From assembly GCA_964016885.1 (NCBI GenBank), contig OZ024742.1, forward strand, positions 365,986,001 to 366,050,000: a stretch of DNA of 64,000 bases, read 5' to 3'. The position numbers and the translations under genes were made by a program. Below are positions 6,001 through 39,847 of the stretch, one piece after another; the first letter of the stretch is position 1, and each line of letters begins with the position of its first letter. The DNA is from Eledone cirrhosa (taxonomy: Eukaryota). Below the pieces are notes generated by a model, which was not told the origin of the DNA, did not search any database, and saw only the letters and a program-made list of their open reading frames with translations.

Positions 6001-6693
6001 AGAGTTATAGAGAGTTATAAAAGAGCAGAGCATTACAGCAGAATGTATAGAGCGTTATAAAAGGGCAGAGCATTACAGCAGAGAGTTATAGAGCGCTATA
6101 ACAGAGCAGAGCATTACAGAAGATAGTTATAGAGAGTTATAGCAGAGGAGAGCATTACAGAAGAGAGTTATACAGAGTTATAAAAGAGCAGAGCATTACA
6201 GGAGAGAGTTATAGAGAGTTATAAAAGAGAAGAGCATTACAGCAGAGAGTTATAGATCGTTATAGCAGAGCAGAGCATTACAGAAGAGAGTTATTTAAAA
6301 TCAGAGCATTACAGTAGAGAGTTATAGATAGTTATAACAGTGAGCATTACAGCAGAGAGTTATAGAGAGTTATAACAGAGCAGAGCATTACAGAAGAGAG
6401 TTATTGAGATTTATAGCAGAGGAGAGCGTTACAGTAGAGAGTTACACCGAGTTATAACATAGTAGAGCATTACAGAAGAGAGTTATAGAGAGTTATAACA
6501 GAGCTGAGGATTACCATAGAGAGTTATAAAGAGTTATAACAGGGCAGAGCATTACACCAGGGAGTTATAGAGAGTTATAACAGAGGAGAGCATTACAGAA
6601 GAGAGTTATAGAGAGTTATAACAGAGCAGAGCATTACAGAAGTGAGTTATTGAGAGTTATAACAGGGCAGAGCATTACAGCAGAGAGTTATAG
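1..6693. repeat. Satellite array, 41-bp unit (AGAGAGTTATAGAGAGTTATAACAGAGCAGAGCATTACAGC), truncated by the window start
   Basis: Period read directly (TACAGCAGAG at 1501 and 1542); roughly 160 diverged copies. Confidence 0.95.
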
Positions 6694-9271
6694 AACGTTA
6701 TAACAGAGTACAACCTAATAACAGAGTACAACGTTATAACAGAACAGAGCGTTATAACAGAGTACAACGTTATAACAGAGTACAATGTTATAACAGAGTA
6801 CAGTGTTATAACAGAGAACATCGTTATAACAGAGTACAATGTTATAACAGAGTAGTGTTATAACATAACAGAGCGTTATAATAGAGTACAACGTTATAAC
6901 AGAGTACAATGTTATAACAGAGTACAGTGTTATAACAGAGTAGTGTTATAACATAACAGAGCGTTATAACAGAGTACAACGTTATAACAGAGTACAATGT
7001 TATAACAGAGTACAGTGTTATAACAGAGTACATCGTTATAACAGAGTACAATGTTATAACAGAGTAGTGTTATAACAGAACAGAGCGTTATAACAGAGTA
7101 CAACGTTATAACAGAACAAAGCGTTATAACAGAGTACAACGTTATAACAGAGTACAATGTTATAACAGAGTACAGTGTTATAACAGAGTACAGTGTTATA
7201 ACAGAGTACATCGTTATAACAGAGTACAATGTTATAACAGAGTAGTGTTATAACAGAACAGAGCGTTATAACAGAGTACAACGTTATAACAGAACAGAGC
7301 GTTATAACAGAGTACAACGTTATAACAGAGTACAATGTTATAACAGAGTACAGTGTTATAACAGAGTACAGTGTTATAACAGAGTACATCGCTATAACAG
7401 AGTACAGTGTTATAACAGAGTACAACGTTATAAGAGAGTACACCGTTATAACAGAGCTCAGCGTTATAACACAGTACAACGTTATAATAAATTACAACGT
7501 TGTAACAGAGTACAGCGTTATAACAGAGTACAGTTTTATAACATAGCAGAGCGTTATTACAGAGTACAAAGTTATAACAGAGTACAGTGTTATATCAGAA
7601 TATAGCGTTATAACAGTGTACAATGTTATAACTGAGTGCAGCGTTGTAACAAAGTACACCGTTATAACATATTGCAACGTTATAACAGAGTATACCGTTA
7701 TACCAGAGTACAGCGTTATAACAGAGTACAGTTTTATAACAGGATACATCGTTATAACAGAGTACAGTGTTATAACAGAGTACACCGTTATAAAAGAGTA
7801 CACCGTTATAACAGAGTACAACGTTATAACAGAGTACAAAGTTATAACAAATTACAGTGTTATAACAGAGTACGGTGTTATAACAGAGTACAACGTTGTT
7901 ACAGAGTACAGCATTGTAACAAAGTTCAGCGTTGTAACAAAGTACACCGTTCTAACAGAGTATAGCGTTATAACATAGTATACCGTTATAACAGAGTACA
8001 GTGTTATAACAGAGTATACCGTTATAGCAGAGTACAACCTTATAACAGAGTACAGTGTTATAACAGAGTAAAACGGTATAACAGTGTACAGCGTTATAAC
8101 AGAGTACAACGTTATAACAGAGTATACCGTTATAACAGAGCACAGTGTTATAACAGAGTATACAATTATAACAGAGTACAACCTTATAACAGAGTACAGT
8201 GTTATAACAGAGTACAGCGGTATAACGGAGTACAGTGTTATAACAGAGTACAACTTTATAACAGAGTACAACGTTATAACAGAATACAACGTTATAACAG
8301 AGTACAACGTTATAACAGAGTACAACGTTATAACAGAATACAACGTTATAACAGAGTATACCGTTAGAACAGTGTACAATGTTATAACAGAGTACAGCAT
8401 TATAACAGAGTACAACGTTATAACAGAGTACAGCGTTATAACAGAGTACAACGTTATAACAGAGTACAGCGTTATAACAGAGTACAATGTTATAACAGAG
8501 TACAACGTTATAACAGAGTACAGCGTTATAACAGAGTATAACGTTATAACAGAGTACAATGTTATAGCAGAGTACAACGTTATAACAGAGTACAGTGTTA
8601 TAACAGAGTATACAATTATAACAGAGTACAACCTTATAACAGAGTACAGTGTTATAACAGAGTACAGCGGTATAACGGAGTACAGTGTTATAACAGAGTA
8701 CAACTTTATAACAGAGTACAACGTTATAACAGAATACAACGTTATAACAGAGTACAACGTTATAACAGAGTACAACGTTATAACAGAATACAACGTTATA
8801 ACAGAGTATACCGTTAGAACAGTGTACAATGTTATAACAGAGTACAGCGTTATAACAGAGTACAACGTTATAACAGAGTACAGCGTTATAACAGAGTACA
8901 ACGTTATAACAGAGTACAGCGTTATAACAGAGTACAATGTTATAACAGAGTACAACGTTATAACAGAGTACAGCGTTATAACAGAGTATAACGTTATAAC
9001 AGAGTACAATGTTATAGCAGAGTACAACGTTATAACAGAGTACAGCGTTATAACAGAGTACACTGTTATAACAGAGTACAACGTTATAACAGAGTACAGC
9101 GTTATAACAGAGTACAATGTTATAACAGAGTACAACGTTATAACAGAGTACAACGTTATAACAGAGTACAACGTTATAACAGAGTATAACGTTATAACAG
9201 AGTATAATGTTATAACAGAGTACGGTGTTATATCAGAGTACAGCGTTATAACAGAGTACAACGTTATAACA
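6694..9271. repeat. Satellite array, 18-bp unit (GTTATAACAGAGTACAAC)
   Basis: Direct periodicity; gives the spurious YSVITL/VITEYN hexapeptide ORFs. Confidence 0.95.
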
Positions 9272-10143: not shown

Positions 10144-10601
<458 letters not shown>

Positions 10602-10619
10602 ATATATATATATATATAA

Positions 10620-11382
10620 TCTGGGTAATATTAAATATTATCCAATTACGAATATGAGAATAGCTCAATGTAAAATAACAAGTATATTACAGAGTCGAAA
10701 TACATTATAAATACTAATCAAAGAGTGTTTAAATCATTTAATCACTTACGATCGTTTCATCCTAGCACAAGACCGATTTCATCGGAGTATATAACAAAGT
10801 TTGAAACACAAATATAATATCAGAAGTTTGTCATAAGAAAATTAGGAGCATACATAATATGGGAAGTAAGCATAAGTATCAACATTTGTATAAAAAAAGA
10901 TAGCAGTTGAACCTTTCATATCCATTCTTGGAGGTATCTTTTGGAGGTGTATTTTTGTGTTTTGGGATTTGTGTTTGGGCTGCACACCTGCTCTTGTTGG
11001 TTTTGTGGACTTTTGTCATGCTTATGATATATGTTTACTTACTAATTATGATATATGACTTGCACTATACGTAACCTTTCTATAGCAACATGCTTTTAAA
11101 ATAGTTAATGCTTTTAGCTGCTCCTGATTTGATTTTATTGCATTTATATGCTCATATTTTTCACATGCTTCTTCCACATTTTGCTATCTTTTCTTATATA
11201 ATTGTTGATACTTATGCTTACTTCCCATATTATGTATCCGCCTAATGTTCTCATGACAAACTTCTGATATTATATTTGTGTTTCAACCTTTATTATATAA
11301 TCCGATGAAGCGGCCTTGTACTAGGATGAAACGATCGTAAGTGTTTAAATGTTTTAAACACTCTTTGATTGTTATTTATAAA

Positions 11383-11383
<1 letters not shown>
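10620..11383. mobile_element. Older fold-back element in (TA)n: ~200-bp inverted arms (10705-10905 / 11182-11381), ~280-bp spacer, one-sided tail 10620-10704
   Basis: Arms are diverged reverse complements; TA tracts flank both ends. Confidence 0.7.
11298..11343 (+). ncRNA. Hammerhead-like motif, CCGATGA core variant (mirror 10743-10789 on the minus strand)
   Basis: CCGATGA...GAAA-CGATCG-TA-AGTG; palindromic stem III ACGATCGT; stem I TACT/AGTG in the left-arm copy. Confidence 0.55.
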
Positions 11384-11458
<75 letters not shown>

Positions 11459-12309: not shown

Positions 12310-13506
12310 CCTGTCTGAGGACTACCCTCCCTCTGACAGAATTGTCTGACGACTACCCTCCCTCTGACAGGAATATCTGAGGACTGCCCTCCCTCTGACA
12401 GAAGTGTCTGGGGACTACCCTCCCTCTGACAGAAGTGTCTGAGGACTGCCCTTCTTCTGAGAGAAGTGTCTGACGACTACCCTCCCTCTGACAGAAGTGT
12501 CTGAGGACTACCCTCCCTCTGACAGAAGTGTCTGAGGACTGCCCTTCCTCTGACAGACGTGTCTGACGACTACCCTCCCTCTGACAGAAATGTATGACGA
12601 CTGCCCTCCCTCTGACAGAAATGTATGACGACTGCCCTCCCTCTGACAGAAATGTATGACGACTGCCCTTCCTCTGACAGAAGTGTCTGAGGACTACCCT
12701 TCCTCTGACAGAAATGTATGACGACTACCCTTCCTCTGACAGAAGTGTCTGACGACTGCCCTTCCTCTGACAGAAATGTCTGAGGACTACCCTCCCTCTG
12801 ACAGAAATGTATGACGACTGCCCTTCCTCTGACAGAAGTGTCTGACGACTACCCTCCCTCTGACAGAAGTGGCTAAGGTCTGCCCTTCCTCTGACAGAAG
12901 TGTCTGACGACTACCCTCCTTCCGTCAGAATTGTTTGACCACTACCCTCCCTCTGAGAGAAGTGTCTGACGACTACCCTCCCTCTGACAGAAGTGTCTGA
13001 CGACTACCCTCCCTCTGACAGAAGTGTCTGACGACTACCCTCCCTCTGACAGAAGTGTCTGGGGACTACCCTCCCTCTGACAGAAGTGTCTGAGGACTGC
13101 CCACCCTCTGACAGAATTGTCTGACGACTACCCTCTCTCTGCAAGAAGTTTTTGACGACTACCCTCTCTCTGACAGACGTGTCTGAGGACTGCCCTTCCT
13201 CTGACAGAAGTGTCTGAAGACTACCCTCCTTCTGGCAACAAGTGTCTGAGGACTGCCCTTCCTCTGACAGAAATGTCTAACGACTACCCTCCCTCTGACA
13301 GAAGTGTGTGACGACTACCGTTCTGACAGACGTGTCTGATGACTGCCCTTCCTCTGACAGAATTGTCTGACGACTGCCCCTCCCTCTGACAGAAGTGTCT
13401 GAGGACTGCCCTTCCTCTGACAGAACTATCTGACGACTAACCTCCCTCTGACAGAAGTGTCTGAGGACTGCCCTTCCTCTGACAGAAATGTCTGAAGACA
13501 ACCCTC
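12310..13506. repeat. Minisatellite, 31-bp unit (AGTGTCTGACGACTACCCTCCCTCTGACAGA), ~38 copies
   Basis: Period read at 12961/12992. Confidence 0.95.
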
Positions 13507-17204: not shown

Positions 17205-17325
17205 AGTCTGAGTTCAAATCCCGCTGAGGTTAACTTTGCCTTTCATCCTTACGGGGTCGATAAAATAAAGTACCAGTAATACACTTGGATTATTGCTGGC
17301 CTTGTACCAAAAGTAGAAACAATAT
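17205..17325 (+). mobile_element. tRNA-derived SINE copy (B-box plus conserved core)
   Basis: GAGTTCAAATCC B-box then TTTGCCTTTCATCCTTACGGGGTCGATAAAATAAAGTACCAGT; many copies in the window. Confidence 0.75.
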
Positions 17326-17411: not shown

Positions 17412-17600
17412 TAATTGTTTCTACTTTAGGCACAAGGCCAGCAATTACCCAGTGCATTACTGGTACTTTATTTGATCGACCCCGTAAGGATGAAAGACAA
17501 AGTCAACCTCGGCGGGATTTGAACTCAGATCATAAAGGGACGTAACTATGCTGGAAAGCATGGCGTCCGACCCTCTACCGATACTGCCAATCCACCGCCC
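17412..17600 (-). mobile_element. tRNA-derived SINE copy, inverted relative to the 17205 copy
   Basis: Reverse complement closely matches 50590-50752. Confidence 0.75.
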
Positions 17601-19785: not shown

Positions 19786-20145
19786 TCAAATGATTGTTTA
19801 ATAGCGAATGTATAATAGAATTTCCAAGAGTTTGAATCAATAGGCGAGGATTACCTTATATGACATCATTGTATGATATAAGGGTGGGGATAACTCCTTA
19901 TGATCCAATATAACAAGGTAACAATATGAGGTAAATTACTGTAGACAACAAAGAGAACCGACTGAGACGTTAAGAATGTTGGACAGAATGGCTGGGGGAG
20001 AGGTCTTTATTCCGGTTCTCTTCGCTATCAATTTAAATCCTTGCAAGGTCAAATTTGACTTTTATCCCATAGCACTTAAATACAGCCCAATACTAGGGTC
20101 GATTCTCTGCATGTATGTATGCATGTGTATGTATATATATATATA

Positions 20146-20183
<38 letters not shown>

Positions 20184-20187
<4 letters not shown>

Positions 20188-21391
20188 AAAGTTTTATTTA
20201 AGATTGTTGGGTTACAACGAGTAAATATTTTATAACTGATATAAAAGCACTCAACAGTTTCTGGAGTAGGTTTACGATATTAAACAAATGGAAACTATAT
20301 TTATAAAACCATATTTATTTCGTTATATATATTTCTGGGATATCATATTAAAAATATGTTATGCCTTCCTCAGACAAAATACAATACATAAGCTGTTTTA
20401 TAAATAATTAGTGACATACCTTGTAATAATGCAACTTCCTTTTAAAAAGTTGATTTGGTAGTGAAACTGTTATGATAGTTATATAGAAAGAAAACGAAGA
20501 TGAGAAGAAGAAGATGAAGAGATGTATGTAAATAAAAAAAGAAGAAGATGAAGAGATGTATGTAAAGAAAAAAGAGATGTATGTAAAGAAAAACAACGGA
20601 GCGAGATAGAGAGACAAGGAGAGAGAGAAATACATTGATGGTGAAAAACATAGTAGGCTGCTTTTTGACAGATGATCATCGTATATGTGAGAGGTTAAGG
20701 GAAGGGATACAGTTAAATTAGTGTAAGGAGAAAAAGAAAGAAAGATGATATATTTAAAATATATTAAAAATATATTATGTCTCATCCATTTGAATTATCA
20801 ATTTTTATGAATTAGGTATTATAATGTACATTATAATGTACATTATAATACCTAATTCATAAAAATTGATAATTCAAATGGATGAGACATAATATATTTT
20901 TAATATATTTTAAATATATCATCTTTCTTTCTTTTTCTCCTTACACTAGTTTAACTGTATCCCTTCCCTTAACCTCTCACATATACGATGATCATCTGTC
21001 AAAAAGCAGCCTACTATGTTTTTCACCATCAATGTATTTCTCTCTCTCCTTGTCTCTCTATCTCGCTCCGTTGTTTTTCTTTACATACATCTCTTTTTTC
21101 TTTACATACATCTCTTCATCTTCTTCTTTTTTTATTTACATACATCTCTTCATCTTCTTCTTCTCATCTTCGTTTTCTTTCTATATAACTATCATAACAG
21201 TTTCACTACCAAATCAACTTTTTAAAAGGAAGTTGCATTATTACAAGGTATGTCACTAATTATTTATAAAACAGCTTATGTATTGTATTTTGTCTGAGGA
21301 AGGCATAACATATTTTTAATATGATATTCCAGAAATATATATAACGAAATAAATATGGTTTTATAAATATAGTTTCCATTTGTTTAATATC

Positions 21392-21394
<3 letters not shown>
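20184..21394. mobile_element. Fold-back element in (TA)n: 1122-bp spacer-less palindrome (20273-21394) plus one-sided ~90-bp tail
   Basis: Mirror ORFs 20408-20785(-) and 20882-21259(+); centre TTA|TAA at 20833/20834; only about 2 mismatches seen; hammerhead near each outer end. Confidence 0.8.
21286..21351 (+). ncRNA. Type I hammerhead ribozyme motif (mirror 20316-20381 on the minus strand)
   Basis: TATTTTGT-CTGAGGA-A GG..ATAACATATT ttt AATATGATAT..CC A-GAAA-TATATA-TA-ACGAAATA; 8-bp stem I, long stem II, palindromic stem III, AATAAA overlapping its 3' end. Confidence 0.75.
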
Positions 21395-21436
<42 letters not shown>

Positions 21437-21442
<6 letters not shown>

Positions 21443-22451
21443 TTAGAAACACACAGATACATGCGGACACACACATATACATGAATGCATCCACATCCAA
21501 CCGTGAGTTAATGGTGCCAACCTCACCGATGTTGCTCAATGAATGACTGGGACAGACCAATCCGGTTGAACCAGACTGAACCAGTATCAGAGTTAAAAAT
21601 ACATTATGAAGAGAGAAGGAACATTTAGATATAATTAGTAATAAAATGTATCATACCTAAACTGCTCCTAGATTCCTCGACTACGTAGTTTCGTGGCATA
21701 AACAAAAACAGTACATCATAAAGATATAAAGCCTTTGCGAGGTCTGCCGACTTATCAAGAGGATACCTCATTTTATAGCTTCAAGAACGCCTCTACACGA
21801 CGTGAGAAAGAATCCCAAAAGGCGGAGGGGAGATAGTCACGCGATATAACGATCGAGAAACAGAGCTAAGCCTCTTATAACCCCGAAGAAAATACCACGG
21901 AGGCGGAGGGGGTATTTATATCGAAGCCGTAGAAGAGGTGGTAAAGGAGGCGAGAAGTATGAGTAATGGCAGCTTACCAGCAGTCACTACACTTCAAAGA
22001 TTACTCGACCAGAGGGAGTTATGAACAATATATTTAGAAACACTACTTTGAAGTGTAGTGACTGCTGGAAAGCTGCCATTACTCATACTTCTCGCCTCCT
22101 TTACCACCTCTTCTACGGCTTCGATATAAATACCCCCTCCGCCTCCGTGGTATTTTCTTCGGGGTTATAAGAGGCTTAGCTCTGTTTCTCGACCGTTATA
22201 TCGCGTGACTATCTCCCCCTCCGCCTTTTGGGATTCTTTCTCACGTCGTGTAGAGGCGTTCTTGAAGCTATAAAATGAGGTATCCTCTTGATAAGTCGGC
22301 AGACTTCGCAAAGGCTCTATATCTTTATGATGTACTGTTTTTGTTTATGCCACGAAACTACGTAGTCGAGGAATCTAGGAGCAGTTTAGGTATGATACAT
22401 TTTATTACTAATTATATCTAAATGTTCCTTCTCTCTTCATAATGTATTTTT
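21437..22451. mobile_element. Fold-back element in (TA)n: 405-bp arms (21595-21999 / 22046-22451), 46-bp spacer, one-sided tail
   Basis: Near-perfect reverse-complement arms; TA tracts on both sides. Confidence 0.8.
22283..22372 (+). ncRNA. Type I hammerhead ribozyme, U3-A8 core variant with long loop II (mirror 21674-21763 on the minus strand)
   Basis: TCCTC-TTGATAA-GTCGGCA…TGCCAC-GAAA-CTACGTAG-TC-GAGGA; palindromic stem III ACTACGTAGT; GUC site. Confidence 0.8.
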
Positions 22452-22466
22452 TATATATATATATAT

Positions 22467-22532
22467 AAAAGGCTTCTACAGGACTAGAACTGTTTCATTC
22501 GGGCGAAATCATCAAGAAGCCCGGGATAAACT
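22467..22532 (-). ncRNA. Solo 66-bp insert between TA tracts consisting almost only of a hammerhead motif (same family as 10401)
   Basis: Minus strand GGGCTTC-TTGATGA-T TTC GCCC GAA T-GAAA-CAG TTCTAGTC CTG-TA-GAAGCC; stems conserved and loop II changed relative to the 10401 copy. Confidence 0.7.
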
Positions 22533-22560
22533 TATATATATATATATACACACATACGCT

Positions 22561-23048
22561 AAGAACATGAAGGCCCACATCACCAGCAGCCCTAGGAGCA
22601 ACACCCCAGCAGGGTGCTCTTGCCGTAAGCCTGAAGCTTGCTCCCTTCAACAGCAATGCAACACACCAGCTGTAATTTATGAAGCCGATCAAATCAACCA
22701 CAGGAGGTCAAATCCTATGTGAGCATGGCGGAGCGCCGATTTAAGGAACGTTTCCTGAACCATCAGTCGACCTTTAGGTACCCGGACAGACGTTCATCCA
22801 CGAAACTCGCGAGCCACGTATGGTCCCGCAAGGACTCAAGTATAGACTACTCCATTCAATGGAGAGCCATCACTAAGTCCAAGCCATACGCAAGGGGAAA
22901 TCCGACGTGTGGCTTATGTATTGACGAACGAATAACCATTCTAAAGAGATTATGCAATAGTGATTGCCTAAACACGAGACATGAATTTTTCACACGTTGT
23001 CCACACATCTCCAAACACCTCTTGCATAACTACAAAGCTCCGGATTGA
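22561..23048 (+). pseudogene. Frameshifted PLE GIY-YIG endonuclease domain
   Basis: Frame 1: KNMKAHIT…GCSCRKPEACSLQQQCNTPAVIYEA (CxCx5Cx5C, 'VIY'). After a frameshift near 22690: KSYVSMAERRFKERFLNHQSTFR…LASHVW…IQW…CGLCIDERITI…LNTRHEFFTRCPH. Confidence 0.85.
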
Positions 23049-23202
23049 ATCATTGTAATTTTCTTATCAACTAAAAACTTTTCGGACTTTCACAGTTATC
23101 TCCCTTACATCTCTCGCACGCATTCTAGTATTGCCTGTGAAGTGACCGGGTTTCTGCGCATGCGCGTTCGTAGTGTTGTCCTTCCTGTTCCTATAACCAT
23201 GC

Positions 23203-23252
23203 CCATTACGAGCTGAGGATCCGCTAAGGTGAAACAATTGTTCTCAGTATGG
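23203..23252 (+). ncRNA. Minimal type I hammerhead in the PLE 3' terminal repeat
   Basis: CCATTACGAG-CTGAGGA-T CC GCTAA GG T-GAAA-CAATTG-TT-CTCAGTATGG; bulged stem I, palindromic stem III. Confidence 0.7.
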
Positions 23253-23341
23253 TGAACTAACTGTTGTGTAACCACTTCTACCTAACTCGTCCCATGGACT
23301 GAGTGCTCTACCACTACGGATATTACCTTCCAGTGTTCCAC

Positions 23342-23429
<88 letters not shown>

Positions 23430-23432
<3 letters not shown>

Positions 23433-23585
23433 ATAAGAAACGGAGAATCAGTTGTGCGACGAATTAGAATTTATTAGACATATTACAATCATTTCTCTGG
23501 CGACCAGCTCGAGGTACGATCGATGTGATGATCGAACCGGACTCTGAAATCGCAAGTTTTTCAGATACGTCTTTATCCCTCCAAA
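23430..23585 (-). mobile_element. Short insert between TA tracts carrying a decayed hammerhead (23476-23572) with extended stem II, followed by AATAAA
   Basis: Minus strand AGACGTAT-CTGAAAA-ACTTGCGAT…GGTTCGATC…GATCGTACC…GTCGCCAGA-GAAA-TGATTG-TA-ATATGTCT-AATAAA; 8-bp stem I pairs fully. Confidence 0.65.
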
Positions 23586-23728
23586 TATATATATATATAT
23601 ATACCCACACGAAATCTTTCTCTCTCTCTATTTAACGCATCACTGCCTTCCTTTTGGTTGGTATATTAAGGCATTGAGTGACTGGGAAAACTATCGAAGG
23701 TATTTCCGTCCTATCCAATGACTTCGCT

Positions 23729-24154: not shown

Positions 24155-24300
24155 AGAGGCGGAGAATTGACAGTGGTTAGTGCACGGGAGAGAATTGTTC
24201 ACGGTATCTTGCTTTGTGTTCTGAGTTCAAATCCCTCCCAAGTCAAATTTAATTTTCATCATATCGAGCTCGACAAATAAAACACAAATCAAGCACTGGC
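24155..24300 (+). mobile_element. Diverged tRNA-derived SINE copy
   Basis: A-box-like GGCGGAGAATTGACAGTGGTTAG and B-box GAGTTCAAATCC plus a degenerate core. Confidence 0.55.
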
Positions 24301-25348: not shown

Positions 25349-25440
25349 TCTGAGTTCAAACCCTACCAAGATCAACTTTGCCTTGCATACATTCGAAGTC
25401 GATAAAAAAAAGTACCAGTCAAGTACTGGGGTCGATTATT
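25349..25440 (+). mobile_element. SINE core forming the left flank of the 11-kb array
   Basis: GAGTTCAAACCC…ACTTTGCCTTGCATACATTCGAAGTCGATAAAAAAAAGTACCAGTCAAGTACTGGGGTCGAT. Confidence 0.65.
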
Positions 25441-28400
25441 CCTCTCTATCTCTTTCTCACTCCTATTCTCTCTCTCTCTATATCACTTTCTCACTCCCAT
25501 TCTCTCTCTCTATATATCACTTTCTCACTCCCATTCTCTCTCTCTCTCTATATCTCTTTCTCACTCCCATTCTCTCTCTCTCTCTATATCACTTTCTCAC
25601 TCCCATTCTCTCTCTCTATATATCACTTTCTCACTCCCATTCTCTCTCTCTCTCTATATCTCTTTCTCACTCCCATTCTCTCTCTCTCTCTATATCACTT
25701 TCTCACTCCCATTCTCTCTCTCTATATATCACTTTCTCACTCCCATTCTCTCTCTCTCTCTATATCTCTTTCTCACTCCCATTCTCTCTCTCTATATATA
25801 TCTCTTTCTCACTCCCATTCTCTCTCACTCTATATCTCTTTCTCACTCCCATTCTCTCTCTCTCTCTATCACTTTCTCACTCCCATTCTCTCTCTCTCTC
25901 TCTATCTCTTTCTCACTCCAATTCTCTCTCTCTATATCTCTTTCCCACTCCCATTCTCTCTCTCTATATCTCTTTCTCACTCCCATTCTCTCTCTCTATA
26001 TATATCTCTTTCTCACTCCCATTCTCTCTCTCTATATCTCTTTCTCACTCCCATTCTCTCTCTCTCTCTATCTCTTTCTCACTCCTATTCTCTCTCTCTC
26101 TCTCTATCTCTTTCTCACTCCCATTCTCTCTCTATATATATCTCTTTCTCACTCCTATTCTCTCTCTCTCTCTCTATCTCTTTCTCACTCCCATTCTCTC
26201 TCTCTCTATATATCTCTTTCTCACTCCTATTCTCTCTCTCTCTCTATCTCTTTCTCACTCCCATTCTCTCTCTCTCTCTCTATCTCTTTCTCACTCCCAT
26301 TCTCTCTCTCTCTATATCTCTTTCTCACTCCTATTCTCTCTCTCTCTCTCTATCTCTTTCTCACTCCCATTCTCTCTCTCTATATATCTCTTTCTCACTC
26401 CCATTCTCTCTCTCTCTCTCTCTATCTCTTTCTCACTCCCATTCTCTCTCTCTCTATATCTCTTTCTCACTCCCATTCTCTCTCTATATATATCTCTTTC
26501 TCACTCCCATTCTCTCTCTCTATATATCCCTTTCTCACTCCCATTCTCTCTCTCTATATATCTCTTTCTCACTCCCATTCTCTCTCTCTCTATATATCAC
26601 TTTCTCACTCCCATTCTCTCTCTCTCTATATCTCTTTCTCACTCCCATTCTCTCTCTCTCTCTCTATCTCTTTCTCACTCCCATTCTCTCTCTCTCTCTA
26701 TCTCTTTCTCACTCCCATTCTCTCTCTCTCTATATCTCTTTCTCACTCCTATTCTCTCTCTCTCTCTCTATCTCTTTCTCACTCCCATTCTCTCTCTCTC
26801 TATATCTCTTTCTCACTCCCATTCTCTCTCTCTCTCTATCTCTTTCTCACTCCCATTCTCTCTCTCTCTATATCTCTTTCTCACTCCCATTCTCTCTCTC
26901 ACTCTTTCTATCACTTTCTCACTCCCATTCTCTCTCTCTATCTCTTTCTCACTCCCATTCTCTCTCTCTCTCTATATCACTTTCTCACTCCCATTCTCTC
27001 TCTCTCTCTATATCACTTTCTCACTCCCATTCTCTCTCTCTCTCTATATCACTTTCTCACTCCCATTCTCTCTCTCTATATATATCACTTTCTCACTCCC
27101 ATTCTCTCTCTCTATATATATCACTTTCTCACTCCCATTCTCTCTCTCTCTCTTTCTATCTCTTTCTCACTCCCATTCTCTCTCTCTATATATCACTTTC
27201 TCACTCCCATTCTCTCTCTCTATATATCTCTTTCTCACTCCCATTCTCTCTCTCTCTCTATATCACTTTCTCACTCCCATTCTCTCTCTCTCTCTCTCTA
27301 TCTCTTTCTCACTCCCATTCTCTCTCTCTCTCTATCACTTTCTCACTCCCATTCTCTCTCTCTATCACTTTCTCACTCCCTTTCTCTCTCTCTCTCTATC
27401 TCTTTCTCACTCCCATTCTCTCTCTCTCTCTATCTCTTTCTCACTCCCATTCTCTCTCTCTCTCTATCTCTTTCTCACTCCCATTCTCTCTCTCTCTCTA
27501 TCACTTTCTCACTCCCATTCTCTCTCTCTCTCTATCTCTTTCTCACTCCCATTCTCTCTCTCTCTATATATCTCTTTCTCAATCCCATTCTCTCTCTCTC
27601 TCTCTATCACTTTCTCACTCCCATTCTCTCTCTCTCTCTATCTCTTTCTCACTCCCATTCTCTCTCTCTCTCTATCACTTTCTCACTCCCATTCTCTCTC
27701 TCTCTCTATCTCTTTCTCACTCCCATTCTCTCTCTCTCTCTATCACTTTCTCACTCCCATTCTTTCTCTCTATATATCTCTTTCTCACTCCCTTTCTCTC
27801 TCTCTCTCTATCTCTTTCTCACTCCCATTCTCTCTCTATATATATATCTCTTTCTCACTCCCATTCTCTCTCTCTCTATCACTTTCTCACTCCCATTCTC
27901 TCTCTCTCTCTATCACTTTCTCACTCCCTTTCTCTCTCTCTCTATCTCTCTTTCTCACTCCCATTCTCTCTCTCTCTCTATCTCTTTCTCACTCCCATTC
28001 TCTCTCTCTCTCTATCTCTTTCTCACTCCCATTCTCTCTCTCTCTCTATCGCTTTCTCACTCCCATTCTCTCTCTCTATCGCTTTCTCACTCCCATTCTC
28101 TCTCTATATAGATCTCTTTCTCACTCCCATTCTCTCTCTCTCTATATCACTTTCTCACTCCCATTCTCTCTCTCTCTCTATCTCTTTCTCACTCCCATTC
28201 TCTCTCTCTCTCTATCTCTTTCTCACTCCCATTCTCTCTCTCTCTATCTCTTTCTCACTCCCATTCTCTCTCTCTCTCTATCTCTTTCTCACTCCCATTC
28301 TCTCTCTCTCTATCTCTTTCTCACTCCCATTCTCTCTCTCTCTCTATCTCTTTCTCACTCCCATTCTCTCTCTCTCTCTCTCTCTAATCACTTTCTCACT

Positions 28401-28612
28401 CCCATTCTCTCTCTCTCTCTATATCACTTTCTCACTCCCCATTCTCTCACTCTCTATATCTCTTTCTCACTCCCATTCTCTCTCTCTCTCTATCTCTTTC
28501 TCACTCCCATTCTCTCTCTCTCTCTATCTCTTTCTCACTCCGATTCTCTCTCTCTCTATATCTCTTTCTCACTCCCATTCTCTCTCTCTCTCTATCTCTT
28601 TCTCACTCCCAT

Positions 28613-28643
<31 letters not shown>

Positions 28644-31600
28644 CTTTCTCACTCCCATTCTCTCACTCTCTCCATCTCTTTCTCACTCCCATTCTCTCTC
28701 TCTCTCTCTATCACTTTCTCACTCCCATTCTCTCACTCTCTCTATCTCTTTCTCACTCCCATTCTCTCTCTCTCTCTCTATCACTTTCTCACTCCCATTC
28801 TCTCACTCTCTCTATCTCTTTCTCACTCCCATTCTCTCTCTCTCTATATATCTCTTTCTCACTCCCATTCTCTCTCTCTCTCTATATTCACTTTCTCACT
28901 CCCATTCTCTCTCTCTCTATCACTTTCTCACTCCCACTCTCTCACTCTCTCTATCTCTTTCTCACTCCCATTCCTCTCTCTCTCTCTATCTCTTTCTCAC
29001 TCCCATTCTCTCTCTCTCTCTATCTCTTCTCACTCCCATTCTCTCTCTCTCTCTATCTCTTTTCTCACTCCCATTCTCTCTCTCTCTATCTCTTTCTCAC
29101 TCCGATTCTCTCTCTCGCTATATCTCTTTCTCACTCCCATTCTCTCTCTCTATATATATCACTTTCTCACTCCCATTCTCTCTCTCTCTCTATCTCTTTC
29201 TCACTCCATTCTCTCTCTCTCTCTCTCTCTCTATCACTTTCTCACTCCCATTCTCTCACTCTCTCTATCTCTTTCTCACTCCCATTCTCTCTCTCTCTCT
29301 CTATCTCTTTCTCACTCCCATTCTCTCTCTCTCTCTATCTCTTTCTCACTCCCATTCTCTCTCTCTCTCTATCTCTTTCTCACTACCCATTCTCTCTCTC
29401 TCTCTATCTCTTCTCCTCCCATTCTCTCTCTCTCTATCTCTTTCTCACTCCATTCTCTCTCTCTCCTCTCTCTCTATATATATCACTTTCTCACTCCCAT
29501 TCTCTCTCTCTCTCTATCTCTTTCTCACTCCCATTCTCTCACTCTCTCTATCTCTTTCTCACTTCCATTCTCTCTCTCTCTATATATCACTTTCTCACTC
29601 CCATTCTCTCTCTCTATATATCTCTTTCTCTCTCCCATTCTCTCTCTCTCTATATATCTCTTTCTCACTCCCATTCTCTCTCTCTATATATCACTTTCTC
29701 ACTCCCATTCTCTCTCTCTCTATATATATATCACGTTCTCACTCCCATTCTCTCTCTCTCTATATATCACTTTCTCACTCCCATTCTCTCTCTCTCTATA
29801 TCTCTTTCTCACTCCCATTCTCTCTCTCTCTCTATCTCTTTCTCACTCCCATTCTCTCTCTCTATATATATCTCTTTCTCACTCCCATTCTCTCTCTCTC
29901 TCTCTATCACTTTCTCACTCCCATTCTCTCTCTCTCTCTATCTCACTCCCATTCTCTCTCTCTCTCTATCACTTTCTCACTCCCATTCTCTCTCTCTCTC
30001 TATCTCTTTCTCACTCCCATTCTCTCTCTCTCTCTCTCTCTCTATCACTTTCTCACTCCCATTCTCTCTCTCTCTCTATCTCTTTCTCACTCCCATTCTC
30101 TCTCTCTCTCTATCTCTTTCTCACTCCCATTCTCTCTCTCTCTCTCTATCACTTTCTCACTCCCATTCTCTCTCTCTCTCTATCTCTTTCTCACTTCCCA
30201 TTCTCTCTCTCTCTCTCTATCTCTTTCTCACTCCCATTCTCTCTCTCTCTCTCTATCACTTTCTCACTCCCATTCTCTCTCTCTCTCTCTCTATCTCTTC
30301 TCACTCCCATTCTCTCTCTCTCTCTATCTCTTTCTCACTCCCATTCTCTCTCTCTCTCTATCACTTTCTCACTCCCATTCTCTCTCTCTCTCTATCTCTT
30401 TCTCACTCCCATTCTCTCTCTCTCTCTCTATCACTTTCTCACTCCCATTCTCTCTCTCTCTCTATCTCTTTCTCACTCCCATTCTCTCTCTCTATCACTT
30501 TCTCACTCCCATTCTCTCTCTCTATATATCTCTTTCTCACTCCCATTCTCTCTCTCTCTCTCTATCTCTTTCTCACTCCCTTCTCTCTCTCTCTCTATAT
30601 CACTTTCTCACTCCCATTCTCTCTCTCTCTCTAATCACTTTCTCACTCCCATTCTCTCACTCTCTCTATCTCTTTCTCACTACCATTCTCTCCTCTCTCT
30701 CTCTATCACTTTCTCACTCCCATTCTCTCTCTCTCTCTATCACTTTCTCACTCCCATTCTCTCTCTCTATCACTTCTCACTCCCATTCTCTCTCTCTATA
30801 TATCTCTTTCTCACTCCCCATTCTCTCTCTCTCTCTCTATCTCTTTCTCACTCCCATTCTCTCTCTCTCTCTATATCACTTTCTCACTCCCATTCTCTCT
30901 CTCTCTCTATCTCTTACTCACTCCCATTCTCTCTCTCTCTCTCTATCACTTTCTCACTCCCATTCTCTCTCTCTCTCTATCTCTTTCTCACTCCCATTCT
31001 CTCTCTCTCTCTATATCACTTTCTCACTCCCATTCTCTCTCTCTCTCTATCACATTCTCACTCCCATTCTCTCTCTCTATAAATCTCTTTCTCACTCCCA
31101 TTCTCTCTCTCTCTCTATCACTTTCTCACTCCCATTCTCTCTCTCTCTCTATCTCTTTCTCACTCCCATCTCTCTCTCTCTCTATCACTTTCTCACTCCC
31201 ATTCTCTCTCTCTCTCTATCTCTTTCTCACTCCCATTCTCTCTCTCTCTCTCTCTCTATCACTTCTCACTCCCATTCTCTCACTCTCTCTAACACTTTCT
31301 CACTCCCATTCTCTCTCTCTATCACTTTCTCACTCCCATTCTCTCTCTCTATATATCTCTTTCTCACTCCCATTCTCTCTCTCTCTCTCTATCTCTTTCT
31401 CACTCCCATCTCTCTCTCTCTCTATATCACTTTCTCACTCCCATTCTCTCTCTCTCTCTATATCACTTTCTCATTCCATTCTCTCTCTCTCTCTCTATCA
31501 CTTTCTCACTCCCATTCTCTCTCTCACTCTCTATCACTTTCTCACTCCCATTCTCTCTCTCTCTCTATCTCTTTCTCACTCCCATCTCTCTCTCTCTCTC

Positions 31601-33076
31601 TATCACTTTCTCACTCCCATTCTCTCTCTCTCTATCACTTTCTCACTCCCATTCTCTCTCTCTATCACTTTCTCACTCCCATTCTCTCTCTCTATATTAT
31701 CTCTTTCTCACTCCCATTCTCTCTCTCTCTCTCTCTATCTCTTTCTCACTCCCTTCTCTCTCTCTCTCTATATCACTTTCTCACTCCCATTCTCTCTCTC
31801 TCTCTATCTCTTACTCACTCCCATTCTCTCTCTCTCTCTATCACTTTCTCACTCCCAATCTCTCTCTCACTAACACTTTCTCACTCCCATTCTCTCTCTA
31901 TATATATCTCTTTCTCACTCCCATTCTCTCTCTCTCTCTCTATCTCTTTCTCACTCCCATTCTCTCTCTCTCTCTATATCACTTTCTCACTCCCATTCTC
32001 TCTCTCTCTCTATCACTTTCTCACTCCCATTCTCTCTCTCTCTCTATCTCTTTCTCACTCCCATTCTCTCTCTCTCACTCTATCACTTTCTCACTCCCAT
32101 TCTCTCTCTCTCTCTATCACTTCTCACTCCCATTCTCTCTCTCTATCACTTTCTCACTCCCATTCTCTCTCTCTCTCTATATCACTTTCTCACTCCCCAT
32201 TCTCTCTCTCTCTCTATCACTTTCTCACTCCCGATTCTCTCTCTCTCTCTATCTCTTTCTCACTCCCATTCTCTCTCTCTCTCTCTATCACTTTCTCACT
32301 CCCATTCTCTCTCTCTCTCTATCCTTTCTCACTCCCATTCTCTCTCTCTCTCTATCACTTTCTCACTCCCATTCTCTCTCTCTATATATCTCTTTCTCAC
32401 TCCCATTCTCTCTCTCACTCTCTATCACTTTCTCACTCCCATTCTCTCTCTCTCTCTATCTCTTTCTCACTCCCATTCTCTCTCTCTCTCTATCACTTTC
32501 TCACTCCCATTCTCTCTCTCTCTCTATCTCTTTCTCACTCCCATTCTCTCTCTCTCTCTATCACTTTCTCACTCCCATCTCTCTCTCTCTCTATCTCTTT
32601 CTCACTCCCATTCTCTCTCTCTCTCTCTATCACTTTCTCACTCCCATTCTCTCTCTCTCTCTATCACTTTCTCACTCCCATTCTCTCTCTCTATCACTTT
32701 CTCACTCCATTCCTCTCCTCTATCACTTTCTCACTCCCATTCTCTCTCTCTATATATCTCTTTCTCACTCCCATTCTCTCTCTCTCTCTCTATCTCTTCT
32801 CACTCCATTCTCTCTCTCTCTCTCTATCACTTTCTCACTCCCATTCTCTCTCTTCTCTCTATCACTTCTCACTCCCATTCCCTCTCTCTCTCTATCTCTT
32901 TCTCACACCCATTCTCTCTCTCACTCTCTATCACTTTCTCACATCCCATTCTCTCTCTCTCTCTATCACTTCTCACACCCATTCTCTCTCTCTATCACTT
33001 TCTCACTCCCATTCTCTCTCTCTATCACTTTCTCACTCCCATTCTCTCTCTCTATATAACTCTTTCTCACTCCCAT

Positions 33077-33109
<33 letters not shown>

Positions 33110-36100
33110 TTCTCACTCCCATTCTCTCTCTCTCTCTCTATCACTTTCTCACTCCCATTCTCTCTCTCTCTCTAACACTTTCTCACTCCCCATACTCTCT
33201 CTCTATCACTTTCTCACTCCCATTCTCTCTCTCTATCACTTTCTCACTCCCATTCTCTCTCTATATATATCTCTTTCTCACTCCCATTCTCTCTCTCTCT
33301 CTCTCTCTATCTCTTTCTCACTCCCATTCTCTCTCTCTCTCTATATCACTTTCTCACTCCCATTCTCTCTCTCTCTCTATCTCTTTCTCACTCCCATTCT
33401 CTCTCTCTCTCTCTATCACTTTCTCACTCCCATTCTCTCTCTCTCTCTATCACTTTCTCACTCCCATTCTCTCTCTCTATCACTTTCTCACTCCCATTCT
33501 CTCTCTCTATATATCTCTTTCTCACTCCCATTCTCTCTCTCTCTCTCTATCTCTTTCTCACTCCCATTCTCTCTCTCTCTCTATATCACTTTCTCACTCC
33601 CATTCTCTCTCTCTCTCTATCTCTTACTCACTCCCATTCTCTCTCTCTCTCTATCACTTTCTCACTCCCATTCTCTCTCTCTATCACTTTCTCACTCCCA
33701 TTCTCTCTCTATATATATCTCTTTCTCACTCCCATTCTCTCTCTCTCTCTCTATCTCTTTCTCACTCCCATTCTCTCTCTCTCTCTATATCACTTTCTCA
33801 CTCCCATTCTCTCTCTCTCTCTATCACTTTCTCACTCCCATTCTCTCTCTCTCTCTATCTCTTTCTCACTCCCATTCTCTCTCTCTCTCTCTATCACTTT
33901 CTCACTCCCATTCTCTCTCTCTCTCTATCACTTTCTCACTCCCATTCTCTCTCTCTATCACTTTCTCACTCCCATTCTCTCTCTCTCTCTATATCACTTT
34001 CTCACTCCCATTCTCTCTCTCTCTCTATCACTTTCTCACTCCCATTCTCTCTCTCTATCTCTTTCTCACTCCCATTCTCTCTCTCTCTCTCTATCACTTT
34101 CTCACTCCCATTCTCTCTCTCTCTCTATCTCTTTCTCACTCCCATTCTCTCTCTCTCTCTATCACTTTCTCACTCCCATTCTCTCTCTCTATATATCTCT
34201 TTCTCACTCCCATTCTCTCTCTCTCTCTCTATCACTTTCTCACTCCCATTCTCTCTCTCTCTCTATCTCTTTCTCACTCCCATTCTCTCTCTCTATCACT
34301 TTCTCACTCCCATTCTCTCTCTCTATCACTTTCTCACTCCCATTCTCTCTCTCTATATATCTCTTTCTCACTCCCATTCTCTCTCTCTCTCTCTCTCTAT
34401 CTCTTTCTCACTCCCATTCTCTCTCTCTCTCTCTATCACTTTCTCACTCCCATTCTCTCTCTCTCTCTATCACTTTCTCACTCCCATTCTCTCTCTCTAT
34501 CACTTTCTCACTCCCATTCTCTCTCTCTATCACTTTCTCACTCCCATTCTCTCTCTATATATATCTCTTTCTCACTCCCATTCTCTCTCTCTCTCTCTCT
34601 CTATCTCTTTCTCACTCCCATTCTCTCTCTCTCTCTATATCACTTTCTCACTCCCATTCTCTCTCTCTCTCTATCTCTTTCTCACTCCCATTCTCTCTCT
34701 CTCTCTCTATCACTTTCTCACTCCCATTCTCTCTCTCTCTCTATCACTTTCTCACTCCCATTCTCTCTCTCTATCACTTTCTCACTCCCATTCTCTCTCT
34801 CTATATATCTCTTTCTCACTCCCATTCTCTCTCTCTCTCTCTATCTCTTTCTCACTCCCATTCTCTCTCTCTCTCTATATCACTTTCTCACTCCCATTCT
34901 CTCTCTCTCTCTATCTCTTACTCACTCCCATTCTCTCTCTCTCTCTATCACTTTCTCACTCCCATTCTCTCTCTCTATCACTTTCTCACTCCCATTCTCT
35001 CTCTATATATATCTCTTTCTCACTCCCATTCTCTCTCTCTCTCTCTATCTCTTTCTCACTCCCATTCTCTCTCTCTCTCTATATCACTTTCTCACTCCCA
35101 TTCTCTCTCTCTCTCTATCACTTTCTCACTCCCATTCTCTCTCTCTCTCTATCTCTTTCTCACTCCCATTCTCTCTCTCTCTCTCTATCACTTTCTCACT
35201 CCCATTCTCTCTCTCTCTCTATCACTTTCTCACTCCCATTCTCTCTCTCTATCACTTTCTCACTCCCATTCTCTCTCTCTCTCTATATCACTTTCTCACT
35301 CCCATTCTCTCTCTCTCTCTATCACTTTCTCACTCCCATTCTCTCTCTCTCTCTATCTCTTTCTCACTCCCATTCTCTCTCTCTCTCTCTATCACTTTCT
35401 CACTCCCATTCTCTCTCTCTCTCTATCTCTTTCTCACTCCCATTCTCTCTCTCTCTCTATCACTTTCTCACTCCCATTCTCTCTCTCTATATATCTCTTT
35501 CTCACTCCCATTCTCTCTCTCTCTCTCTATCACTTTCTCACTCCCATTCTCTCTCTCTCTCTATCTCTTTCTCACTCCCATTCTCTCTCTCTCTCTATCA
35601 CTTTCTCACTCCCATTCTCTCTCTCTCTCTATCTCTTTCTCACTCCCATTCTCTCTCTCTCTCTATCACTTTCTCACTCCCATTCTCTCTCTCTCTCTAT
35701 CTCTTTCTCACTCCCATTCTCTCTCTCTCTCTCTATCACTTTCTCACTCCCATTCTCTCTCTCTCTCTATCACTTTCTCACTCCCATTCTCTCTCTCTAT
35801 CACTTTCTCACTCCCATTCTCTCTCTCTATCACTTTCTCACTCCCATTCTCTCTCTCTATATATCTCTTTCTCACTCCCATTCTCTCTCTCTCTCTCTAT
35901 CTCTTTCTCACTCCCATTCTCTCTCTCTCTCTCTATCACTTTCTCACTCCCATTCTCTCTCTCTCTCTATCACTTTCTCACTCCCATTCTCTCTCTCTCT
36001 CTATCTCTTTCTCACTCCCATTCTCTCTCTCTCTCTCTATCACTTTCTCACTCCCATTCTCTCTCTCTCTCTATCACTTTCTCACTCCCATTCTCTCTCT

Positions 36101-36504
36101 CTATCACTTTCTCACTCCCATTCTCTCTCTCTATCACTTTCTCACTCCCATTCTCTCTCTCTATATATCTCTTTCTCACTCCCATTCTCTCTCTCTCTCT
36201 CTATCTCTTTCTCACTCCCATTCTCTCTCTCTCTCTCTATCACTTTCTCACTCCCATTCTCTCTCTCTCTCTATCACTTTCTCACTCCCATTCTCTCTCT
36301 CTATCACTTTCTCACTCCCATTCTCTCTCTCTATCACTTTCTCACTCCCATTCTCTCTCTCTATATATCTCTTTCTCACTCCCATTCTCTCTCTCTCTCT
36401 CTATCTCTTTCTCACTCCCATTCTCTCTCTCTCTCTATATCACTTTCTCACTCCCATTCTCTCTCTCTCTCTATCTCTTTCTCACTCCCATTCTCTCTCT
36501 CTAT
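25441..36504. repeat. ~11-kb polypyrimidine satellite, variable ~28-40-bp unit TC(T/A)CTTTCTCACTCCCATT(CT)n(AT)1-3
   Basis: Direct; constant CTTTCTCACTCCCATT core with a variable CT-run length. Confidence 0.97.
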
Positions 36505-39232: not shown

Positions 39233-39311
<79 letters not shown>

Positions 39312-39318
<7 letters not shown>

Positions 39319-39847
39319 CGTAAAGAAAGCCACAACAATGCAGAGGGAAATCTCGAGGTAGGAAGTGAATGATAGATAGGAGAAACAGGAGAAAGTGAAA
39401 ATTGAGAGAGACAAAGATGAAAACAAAACAAAGGTAGAAGGGTTACCGTAGTAGAGATTTAATCCCAATATTTCGGGCTCACGCCCATCAACGGGGGAAA
39501 GTTCCAAAAGGGGGGGAAACAGGCCAAGCGGAGAAAGTTGTGATGTCGTTAATAACGGCATTCCTGTCTTAACGACATCACAACTTTCTCCGCTTGGCCT
39601 GTTTCCCCCCCTTTTGGAACTTTCCCCCGTTGATGGGCGTGAGCCCGAAATATTGGGATTAAATCTCCACTACGGTAACCCTTCTACCTTTGTTTTGTTT
39701 TCATCTTTGTCTCTCAATTTTCACTTTCTCCTGTTTCTCCTATCTATCATTCACTTCCTACCTCGAGATTTCCCTCTGCATTGTTGTGGCTTTCTTAACT
39801 ACGTATTTTACACATTTCACAATGCTTCAAGCAAACTTTAACACCCT

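What the first reader, a model, noticed from the sequence alone, without database searches (positions are those of the whole stretch)
20130..23602. Train of five different ribozyme-carrying elements nested in one TA microsatellite
Five consecutive inserts (20184-21394, 21437-22451, 22467-22532, 22552-23344, 23430-23585) are each separated by a TA tract, and each has its own hammerhead variant (7 motifs in 3.4 kb). This suggests repeated targeting of one (TA)n tract, with each insertion leaving TA targets on both sides, i.e. a self-renewing insertion hotspot.
Basis: partly seen in the sequence, partly recalled or inferred. Interest (0 to 1): 0.75.

Follow-up and report, generated by a model that had tools for sequence, protein, structure and literature searches.

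The report
Penelope-like retroelements stacked in TA microsatellite
Five unrelated pieces of Penelope-like jumping genes, each ending in a predicted self-cutting RNA (hammerhead) motif, sit side by side in a TA repeat, most likely because these elements are known to aim at TA repeats and each landing leaves TA on both sides for the next, so this is a tidy example of known biology rather than a new system.

Summary
Five unrelated inserts lie between six TA tracts and carry seven hammerhead-type motifs: five have an intact 3-8 core pair, two are damaged. They lie side by side, not nested, and two are head-to-head palindromes, hence seven motifs from five events. Insert 4 is the 5'-truncated end of a Hydra-clade Penelope-like element (PLE), a clade already described as (TA)n-targeting and hammerhead-bearing, also in octopus. 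In public runs inserts 2 and 4 are dispersed multicopy families, and insert 4's two fixed 3' ends abut TA. Insert 2 is a structured, non-coding unit of about 590 nt, retrozyme-like. Two more such trains lie in the window. Sequential targeting of one tract is the best explanation, but it is inferred: no read spans the junctions, no empty allele was seen, and the order of insertion is unknown. Modular arrays built through TA tracts are published for plant DNA transposons (SaTars). Verdict: new members of known kinds, modest interest.

The parts
20132..20184 (.). TA tract 1 (53 bp, one interruption); abuts the long 3' end of B1
20185..21392 (.). B1: spacer-less head-to-head palindrome (arms 20273-20833 and 20834-21394), AT-rich, no coding remnant found; the left (minus) arm carries about 90 nt of extra 3' tail
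20316..20381 (-). Hammerhead-type motif, B1 left arm: C3-G8 core at 20373, 8-bp helix I, long helix II closed A.A, palindromic TATATA loop III, predicted cut after 20324
21286..21351 (+). Hammerhead-type motif, B1 right arm: core at 21294, predicted cut after 21343
21393..21436 (.). TA tract 2 (44 bp)
21437..22451 (.). B2: inverted pair (arms 21595-21999 and 22046-22451, 46-nt spacer). The minus strand 22026-21437 is a 590-nt non-coding unit preceded by the last 17 nt of a previous unit (head-to-tail junction); 158-nt tail on the left arm only; multicopy family in two organisms
21674..21763 (-). Hammerhead-type motif, B2 left arm: U3-A8 core at 21758, G10.1-C11.1, 59-nt domain II, palindromic CTACGTAG helix/loop III, predicted cut after 21679
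22283..22372 (+). Hammerhead-type motif, B2 right arm: U3-A8 core at 22288, predicted cut after 22367
22452..22467 (.). TA tract 3 (16 bp)
22468..22532 (-). B3: 65-bp fragment that is little more than a hammerhead (core at 22515, U3.G8; helix II closed U.U). A relative at 10335-10468 has C3-G8 and compensatory changes in helices I and II
22533..22548 (.). TA tract 4 (16 bp); lies between the 5' ends of B3 and B4
22549..23344 (+). B4: 5'-truncated 3' end of a Hydra-clade PLE; family 3' ends at about 23280 (short) and 23344 (long, 64-nt tail)
22546..23048 (+). Frameshifted remnant: CxCX5C linker (frame from 22546) and C-terminal GIY-YIG endonuclease (stop-free 22683-23045) without CCHH, with CxxC and CxH round the conserved E and N
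23207..23249 (+). Hammerhead-type motif of B4: C3-G8 core at 23213, helix II closed U.U, palindromic CAATTG loop III, predicted cut after 23242
23345..23429 (.). TA tract 5 (85 bp)
23430..23584 (-). B5: 155-bp fragment with a damaged hammerhead-like motif (core at 23564, C3.A8; 8-bp helix I; 62-nt domain II); family not tested
23585..23603 (.). TA tract 6 (19 bp); lies at the 5' end of B5

Best explanation
The region is one (TA)n locus hit five times by Penelope-like retroelements or their non-autonomous derivatives. Steps: (1) a PLE protein's GIY-YIG endonuclease nicks a TA tract (published preference; inferred here). (2) Its reverse transcriptase copies the element RNA from one of two fixed internal start sites behind the hammerhead, which gives a short end or a tailed end; copying usually stops early, leaving 3' fragments (ends and 3' bias shown for the B4 family, mechanism from PMC11167929). 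(3) Often both target strands are primed, giving a head-to-head pair with one tailed and one short end (geometry shown, mechanism inferred). (4) The insertion splits the tract, so TA stays on both sides, can regrow by slippage and serves the next element, while earlier inserts, poor in long TA, are not interrupted (inferred). The hammerheads are passengers of the elements' 3' repeats, not a function of the array.
For: B4 protein: 3495 relatives at E<=0.001; 41% identity to the C-terminus of P0129, which has DKT, YRDD and the linker; 136 of the best 150 carry CxxC..E..N..CxH; this fits the Hydra definition, where almost all families insert in (TA)n. L001/L002 (41% identity) show the same order: endonuclease, U.U-closed hammerhead with CAATTG, tail, TA; the B2 arm and B4 are multicopy (X1 8133 contigs; X19 29656 reads, 85% running on into unlike sequence); depth rises to B4's 3' end; loose ends behind 23280 are TA runs (X1 59 contigs, X19 1126 reads, X5 1 contig); 3 X4 contigs show the tailed end running into TA; 6 of the 15 joints shown are strand switches inside B4. 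All 10 hits of the first scan lie in TA-bounded inserts; 12 of 16 hits of the looser scan lie in the three trains, which cover 6685 of 64000 bp. 6 of 6 head-to-head inserts have a tail on one side only (41-158 nt). Tracts 4 and 6 touch only 5' ends, so they were not made at a 3' end.
Against: No contig or read spans the stretch, and nothing was laid across B3 and its two short tracts, which the tool skipped as repeats. B1, B3 and B5 were not tested as families, and no coding remnant ties B1, B2, B3 or B5 to a PLE clade. B1 and B2 do not differ in arm divergence (p=0.14). The clustering test rests on six hand-defined loci in a window chosen for its train. One insert of the 39-41 kb train has short terminal inverted repeats and no hammerhead, so that train is not PLE-only. 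The best run holds only 0.48 of the words and may be another species.
Confidence: 0.78

Rival explanations
1. A permissive neighbourhood, not self-renewal: the region next to the rDNA is repeat-rich, holds many TA tracts and tolerates insertions, and the elements landed in tracts that were already separate or were later brought together by deletion.
For: The window is full of satellites and microsatellites; the clustering test is weak and ascertained; B3 and B5 are very short and could be deletion remnants.
Against: No host DNA is recognisable between any two inserts, only TA; B4 stops at its family's tailed terminus and B2's left arm at its unit end; the pattern repeats in three trains, and the clustering remains without the focal train (p=0.026).
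Confidence: 0.1
2. Assembly artefact: separate repeat copies were joined at TA tracts, or the spacer-less palindrome B1 is a fold-back read.
For: Contiguity is untested; PLE structures are known to trouble assemblies (PMC8557442); B1 is 99.6% palindromic with no spacer.
Against: The window resolves an 11-kb and a 6.7-kb tandem array, which suggests long reads (inference); two junction tracts are only 16 bp; B1's arms differ at 2 sites and end at different points, like the other palindromes; other copies of the B4 family also show strand-switch joints.
Confidence: 0.06
3. The train, or part of it, moved as one block (read-through transduction or segmental duplication).
For: A single-copy state was not shown; the PLE transcripts described are long and tandem.
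Against: Orientations are mixed; 85% of X19 reads run on into unlike sequence; at 22255 all four runs read only the other letter, so no multicopy unit with the window's B2 was seen (contigs drop rare variants and the runs may be of another species).
Confidence: 0.04
4. The TA tracts are written by the elements: the telomerase-related reverse transcriptase stutters on a UA-rich end and adds (TA)n at each insertion.
For: Family 3' ends abut TA; the three long tracts touch tailed 3' ends.
Against: Tracts 4 and 6 touch only 5' ends; TA tracts without inserts exist in the window; in the other trains long tracts also touch short ends; a PLE protein nicks AT-rich DNA in vitro.
Confidence: 0.02

Closest known systems
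Hydra clade of Penelope-like elements (Craig et al. 2021, PMC8557442; includes Hydra-1_Obim from Octopus bimaculoides)
   Same: C-terminal GIY-YIG without CCHH, CxCX5C linker, CxxC and CxH round E and N, 3' hammerhead, (TA)n insertion, inverted 5'-truncated copies, tail at one end. The U...U closure of helix II in B3 and B4 is the commonest form in their File S2.
   Different: B4's hammerhead differs by eye from that of Hydra-1_oBim, so it is another family. Tails in this window run 41-158 nt against 30-40 described. In the parts read the paper does not describe mixed-family arrays. Only B4 can be placed in the clade.
Minimal hammerheads of metazoan PLEs (Cervera and de la Pena 2014, PMC4209133)
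   Same: Type I, tiny palindromic helix III, U3-A8 core variant (B2), pairs of motifs 100-700 bp apart on opposite strands, many families per genome.
   Different: B1 and B5 close helix II with A.A and B2 and B5 have 59-62-nt domains II; I did not see these forms in the parts read. Lunse et al. 2016, which lists many variants, was not available.
SaTar modular arrays in guayule and rice (Valdes Franco et al. 2018, PMC5907723)
   Same: Linear arrays of unrelated elements, each flanked by microsatellite, often (TA)n, none interrupting another.
   Different: SaTars are non-autonomous Mutator-like DNA transposons with terminal inverted repeats in plants; here the modules are retroelement 3' ends with hammerheads in an animal.
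Non-LTR retrozymes (Cervera and de la Pena 2020, PMC7229834; preprint 10.64898/2026.07.22.740005)
   Same: B2 is non-coding, multicopy, strongly structured (z=-5.6), has a type I hammerhead and a head-to-tail junction.
   Different: About 590 nt against about 220-390 nt in the passages read; seen here as one unit plus an inverted copy, not as a tandem array; no RNA or circle was seen.

Membership tests
Hydra-clade PLE (B4) | GIY-YIG endonuclease at the C-terminus, after the reverse transcriptase | tested here: met
   The ORF ends at 23048 and is followed by a 3' UTR; it aligns with residues 495-596 of P0129, downstream of its RT; same order in L001. Pfam alone gave no significant hit.
Hydra-clade PLE (B4) | CxCX5C linker | tested here: met
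   CSCRKPEAC in the frame from 22546
Hydra-clade PLE (B4) | No CCHH cysteines between GIY and YIG; CxxC and CxH round the conserved E and N | tested here: met
   CGLC..E..N..CPH in the ORF; no cysteine pair between VIY and YV, though a frameshift lies there; 136 of 150 relatives share the motif
Hydra-clade PLE (B4) | DKT and RWK motifs; placement in the RT tree | tested here: inconclusive
   The RT is lost in the window. Relative P0129 has ADKT. No tree was built.
Hydra-clade PLE (B4) | 3' hammerhead and (TA)n insertion | tested here: met
Naiad, Nematis, Neptune (considered for B4) | N-terminal endonuclease (Naiad); CCHH motif and CX2-5CxxC linker (all three) | tested here: not met
   The endonuclease is C-terminal, lacks CCHH and has CxCX5C
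PLE or PLE derivative (B1, B2, B3, B5) | RT or endonuclease remnant | tested here: not met
   tblastn of 150 Hydra-type proteins hits only B4; other PLE clades were not used as queries
PLE or PLE derivative (B1, B2) | Inverted 5'-truncated copy, tail at one end, 3' hammerhead | tested here: met
Type I hammerhead | Core CUGANGA/GAAA/UH with the 3-8 pair and three helices | tested here: met
   5 of 7 motifs; B3 has U3.G8 and B5 C3.A8
Type I hammerhead | Covariation | tested here: inconclusive
   Two compensatory changes between B3 and its 10.4-kb relative; helix II differs but pairs in B4 and L001/L002; too few sequences for statistics
Type I hammerhead | Self-cleavage | not testable with these tools
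   needs in vitro transcription
Non-LTR retrozyme (B2) | Non-coding unit with a hammerhead in head-to-tail tandems of two or more units | tested here: inconclusive
   One 590-nt unit plus 17 nt of the previous one; runs support the junction (loose ends behind 22043; a 577-nt contig in X5); no full dimer seen
Non-LTR retrozyme (B2) | Expressed as linear and circular monomer RNA | not testable with these tools
   no RNA holder listed
SaTar (MULE) array | Modules are MULEs with terminal inverted repeats and 10-bp target duplications | tested here: not met
   B1 and B2 are arm-long inversions with unequal ends; B3-B5 have no terminal repeats
SaTar (MULE) array | Unrelated, non-nested modules linked by microsatellite | tested here: met
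   it works like a SaTar array without being one

The most novel reading that the evidence does not exclude
TA-tract trains are a genome-wide, datable record of a PLE community in this lineage: Hydra-clade elements plus large (about 600 nt) retrozyme-like passengers such as B2. Their palindromic inserts record a concerted two-strand priming: one protein dimer copies one already diverged RNA from its two start sites onto both target strands. That would explain why 6 of 6 inverted inserts have exactly one tailed end and why B2's arms share 13 of 14 checked non-family letters.
Probability: 0.35. Interest if true: 0.55.

Novelty: new member of a known kind. Interest (0 to 1): 0.3.

Why it matters
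If true, it carries the microsatellite-linked modular array known from plant DNA transposons over to animal retroelements, and explains why such genomes hold many unclassified short repeats and palindromes between TA tracts. Each train would be a small natural experiment on the open question of how PLEs make inverted, one-tailed insertions, and B2 is a candidate larger retrozyme. Each ingredient (TA preference, hammerheads, inverted copies, tails, modular arrays) is already published, so a specialist would find it neat, not surprising.

Tried and rejected
Rfam at gathering score and at E<=10: no ribozyme family. My first scan demanded a 10.1-11.1 pair and found only B1. Pfam did not recognise the endonuclease. 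The word-based protein search among longer proteins found 0 of 34 candidates. No whole genome is held, so no genome-wide junction count was possible. An exact B4 hammerhead pattern found 0 stretches in metagenome contigs; a looser one found 2 viral loci that look like chance matches inside coding DNA; L003 was uninformative. No RNA holder listed. I first took B4 for Naiad, then Nematis, from recall; both were rejected on the paper's definitions. Novelty of the U.U-closed hammerhead was rejected (File S2). An age order B1 after B2 is not supported (p=0.14). Four loose-scan hits outside the trains have 35-41-nt non-palindromic domains III and were read as chance; the hit at 11250 is a mis-pairing with the 11302 motif. 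Look-ups of earlier findings by place and by sequence were empty. Lunse et al. 2016 is not held.
Full report
Setting. The window is repeat-rich animal DNA with long satellites and many microsatellites. It ends in an rDNA unit whose 18S match spans 2473 nt against a model of 1831. From recall this looks like a cephalopod; I did not test that. No whole genome is held.

Observation. Six TA tracts (53, 44, 16, 16, 85 and 19 bp) separate five inserts: B1 20185-21392, B2 21437-22451, B3 22468-22532, B4 22549-23344, B5 23430-23584. The inserts share no blastn similarity with each other. B1 is a spacer-less palindrome of 561-bp arms with 2 differences; B2 has arms of about 405 bp with 5 differing columns round a 46-nt spacer. 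Rfam reports no hammerhead. A relaxed type I scan gave 10 hits in 64 kb, 6 of them here; shuffles reached the observed score in 0 of 200 (B1, B2, B3) and 2 of 200 (B4), and B5 had no hit. A looser, post hoc scan found the B5 motif (0 of 100 shuffles). So seven motifs exist, from five events. Five have an intact 3-8 pair (C-G in B1 and B4, U-A in B2); B3 has U.G and B5 C.A. Breaking this pair kills a PLE hammerhead in vitro (PMC11167929), so B5 is probably dead (inference). B3 and its relative at 10.4 kb differ by compensatory pairs in helices I and II. Single-motif folding gives no support, as expected for motifs thought to act as dimers. Cleavage is untested.

What B4 is. The stop-free frame 22683-23045 has 3495 relatives at E<=0.001 and matches the C-terminus of P0129, a 658-aa protein with ADKT and YRDD (41% over 103 aa). 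A CxCX5C linker lies just upstream in another frame; other copies have about 16 more letters at that point. There is no CCHH, and CxxC and CxH flank the conserved E and N, as in 136 of the 150 best relatives. These are the features of the Hydra clade, almost all of whose families insert in (TA)n, with one family from Octopus bimaculoides (PMC8557442). L001 and L002, at 41% identity, show endonuclease, a U.U-closed hammerhead with the same CAATTG loop, a tail and a TA tract. The U...U closure is common in the paper's File S2. None of the 150 proteins hits the other four inserts.

Families in public runs. I laid 4 of the 21 listed runs on 21950-23344, which is 1395 of the region's 3470 bases; B1 and B5 were not examined. 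The B2 arm and B4 are multicopy in organisms A and B: 8133 contigs in X1, 216 in X4, 50 in X5, and 29656 reads in X19, 85% of which run on into unlike sequence. Depth rises towards B4's 3' end. Loose ends behind 23280 are TA runs (X1 59, X19 1126, X5 1), and 3 X4 contigs show the longer end running into TA as at 23344. So the family has two fixed ends 64 nt apart, both on TA, matching the two reverse-transcription start sites that explain PLE tails. 6 of the 15 joints shown are strand switches in B4 (29 more not shown), so inverted copies are a family habit. Against: no piece spans the stretch, nothing was laid across B3 and its two short tracts, and the best run holds only 0.48 of the words.

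What B2 is. The spacer holds a 17-nt copy of the left arm's 3' end (family D8), and X1 contigs continue it with tail sequence; X5 has one 577-nt contig covering arm, tail-sized extension and spacer. The minus strand 22026-21437 is thus a 590-nt unit whose end is joined to its own start. Its longest stop-free frame is 71 aa and it folds at z=-5.6 (0 of 100 shuffles). It is a candidate retrozyme-like passenger; no dimer or RNA was seen. Of 14 positions that I picked from the 40 rows shown (187 not shown) where runs read another letter, 13 have the non-family letter in both arms. The arms therefore come from one diverged template, or were homogenised later; either way B2 is one event.

The pattern in the window. 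Two more trains exist: 10232-11436 (2 inserts) and 39235-41177 (4 inserts). 8 of the 11 inserts carry a motif by scan; two more show damaged cores by eye; one has 47-bp terminal inverted repeats and no motif. 12 of 16 loose-scan hits fall in the trains, 6685 of 64000 bp. All 6 head-to-head inserts have a tail on one side only (69, 86, 90, 158, 41, 65 nt); the terminal-repeat element was left out; p=0.016 if ends were drawn independently at one half. Arm divergence runs from 0 of 67 to 17 of 201 substitutions across the window, so insertions are of different ages, but B1 and B2 do not differ (p=0.14). Inserts per TA locus (2, 0, 5, 4, 0, 0) are overdispersed under equal targets (p=0.021; 0.026 without the focal train) and ordinary if each insertion adds a target (p=0.36). 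The loci were defined by hand in a window chosen for its train, so this is suggestive only.

Mechanism. Shown: anatomy, Hydra identity of B4, family ends on TA, inverted habit, separate recurrence of B2 and B4. Taken from papers: nicking of AT-rich DNA, internal start sites, extension of both strands, and that the hammerhead is not needed for insertion in vitro. Inferred: that all five inserts used PLE proteins, that they hit one tract in turn, and that the split tract regrows. Tracts 4 and 6 touch only 5' ends, which favours TA as target over TA written by the enzyme.

Comparison with what is known. (TA)n preference, inverted truncated copies, one-sided tails and 3' hammerheads: PMC8557442. 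Minimal and U3-A8 hammerheads and opposite-strand pairs: PMC4209133. A tendency of PLEs to insert into or next to earlier PLEs: PMC6765202. Non-nested arrays of unrelated elements linked by (TA)n: PMC5907723, for plant MULEs. I found no paper on mixed-family PLE trains in TA tracts in searches; the library lacks most subscription journals.

What I saw of each paper. PMC8557442: abstract, passages, sections 3, 11, 12, supplement searches and part 2 of 59; figures not seen. PMC4209133 and PMC11167929: parts 1-2 of 4. PMC5907723: parts 1-2 of 6 and passages. PMC7229834 and PMC6765202: passages. Preprint 10.64898/2026.07.22.740005: part 1 of 5 and passages; its supplements are closed and may list similar units. 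PMC13282606: part 1 of 3 and passages; its repeat library was not read and may already hold these families. Lunse et al. 2016: title only.

Verdict. A real feature made of new members of known kinds. Interest 0.3. The one-tailed geometry and the B2 unit are the parts worth a genome-wide look.

Noticed in passing
window 10232-11436: Second TA train: a 67-bp-arm perfect palindrome related to B3 (10335-10468) and an older inverted pair (10705-10905 / 11182-11381, 17 substitutions in 201) with CCGATGA-core hammerheads.
   Followed up: partly
window 39235-41177: Third TA train of four inserts: two palindromes whose hammerhead-like cores are damaged in the same way in both arms, one element with 47-bp terminal inverted repeats (39899-40387, possibly a DNA-transposon MITE), and a single fragment with a CCGAAGA-core hammerhead at 40920-.
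   Followed up: partly
window 10785-, 11302+, 40920-: Three hammerhead-type motifs share a C at core position 4, and the palindromic loop III switches between CGATCG and CAATTG; a natural core variant that I did not find in the parts of papers read.
   Followed up: partly
window 20273-21394 and 21595-22451: Read-through transcripts of B1 or B2 would form 400-560-bp hairpins that bury the hammerhead and could yield siRNAs (inference).
   Followed up: no
window 57773-64000: rDNA unit with strongly expanded 18S (2473 nt), preceded by 36-bp subrepeats at 52307-56179.
   Followed up: no
window 25442-36502, 2-9271, 12312-13506, 47323-48972: Long resolved tandem arrays (34/70-bp CT-rich, 41- and 18-bp, 31-bp, 66-bp). 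The 31-bp unit contains CTGA(G/C)GA, which gives false hammerhead cores.
   Followed up: no
window 17207-17269, 17449-17537, 24212-24299, 25349-25429, 50625-50713: Copies of a short interspersed repeat, SINE-like from recall.
   Followed up: no
L001 276-1789, L002 1-1547: Near-intact Hydra-type PLE 3' half from marine metagenomes, with hammerhead, tail and TA tract.
   Followed up: yes
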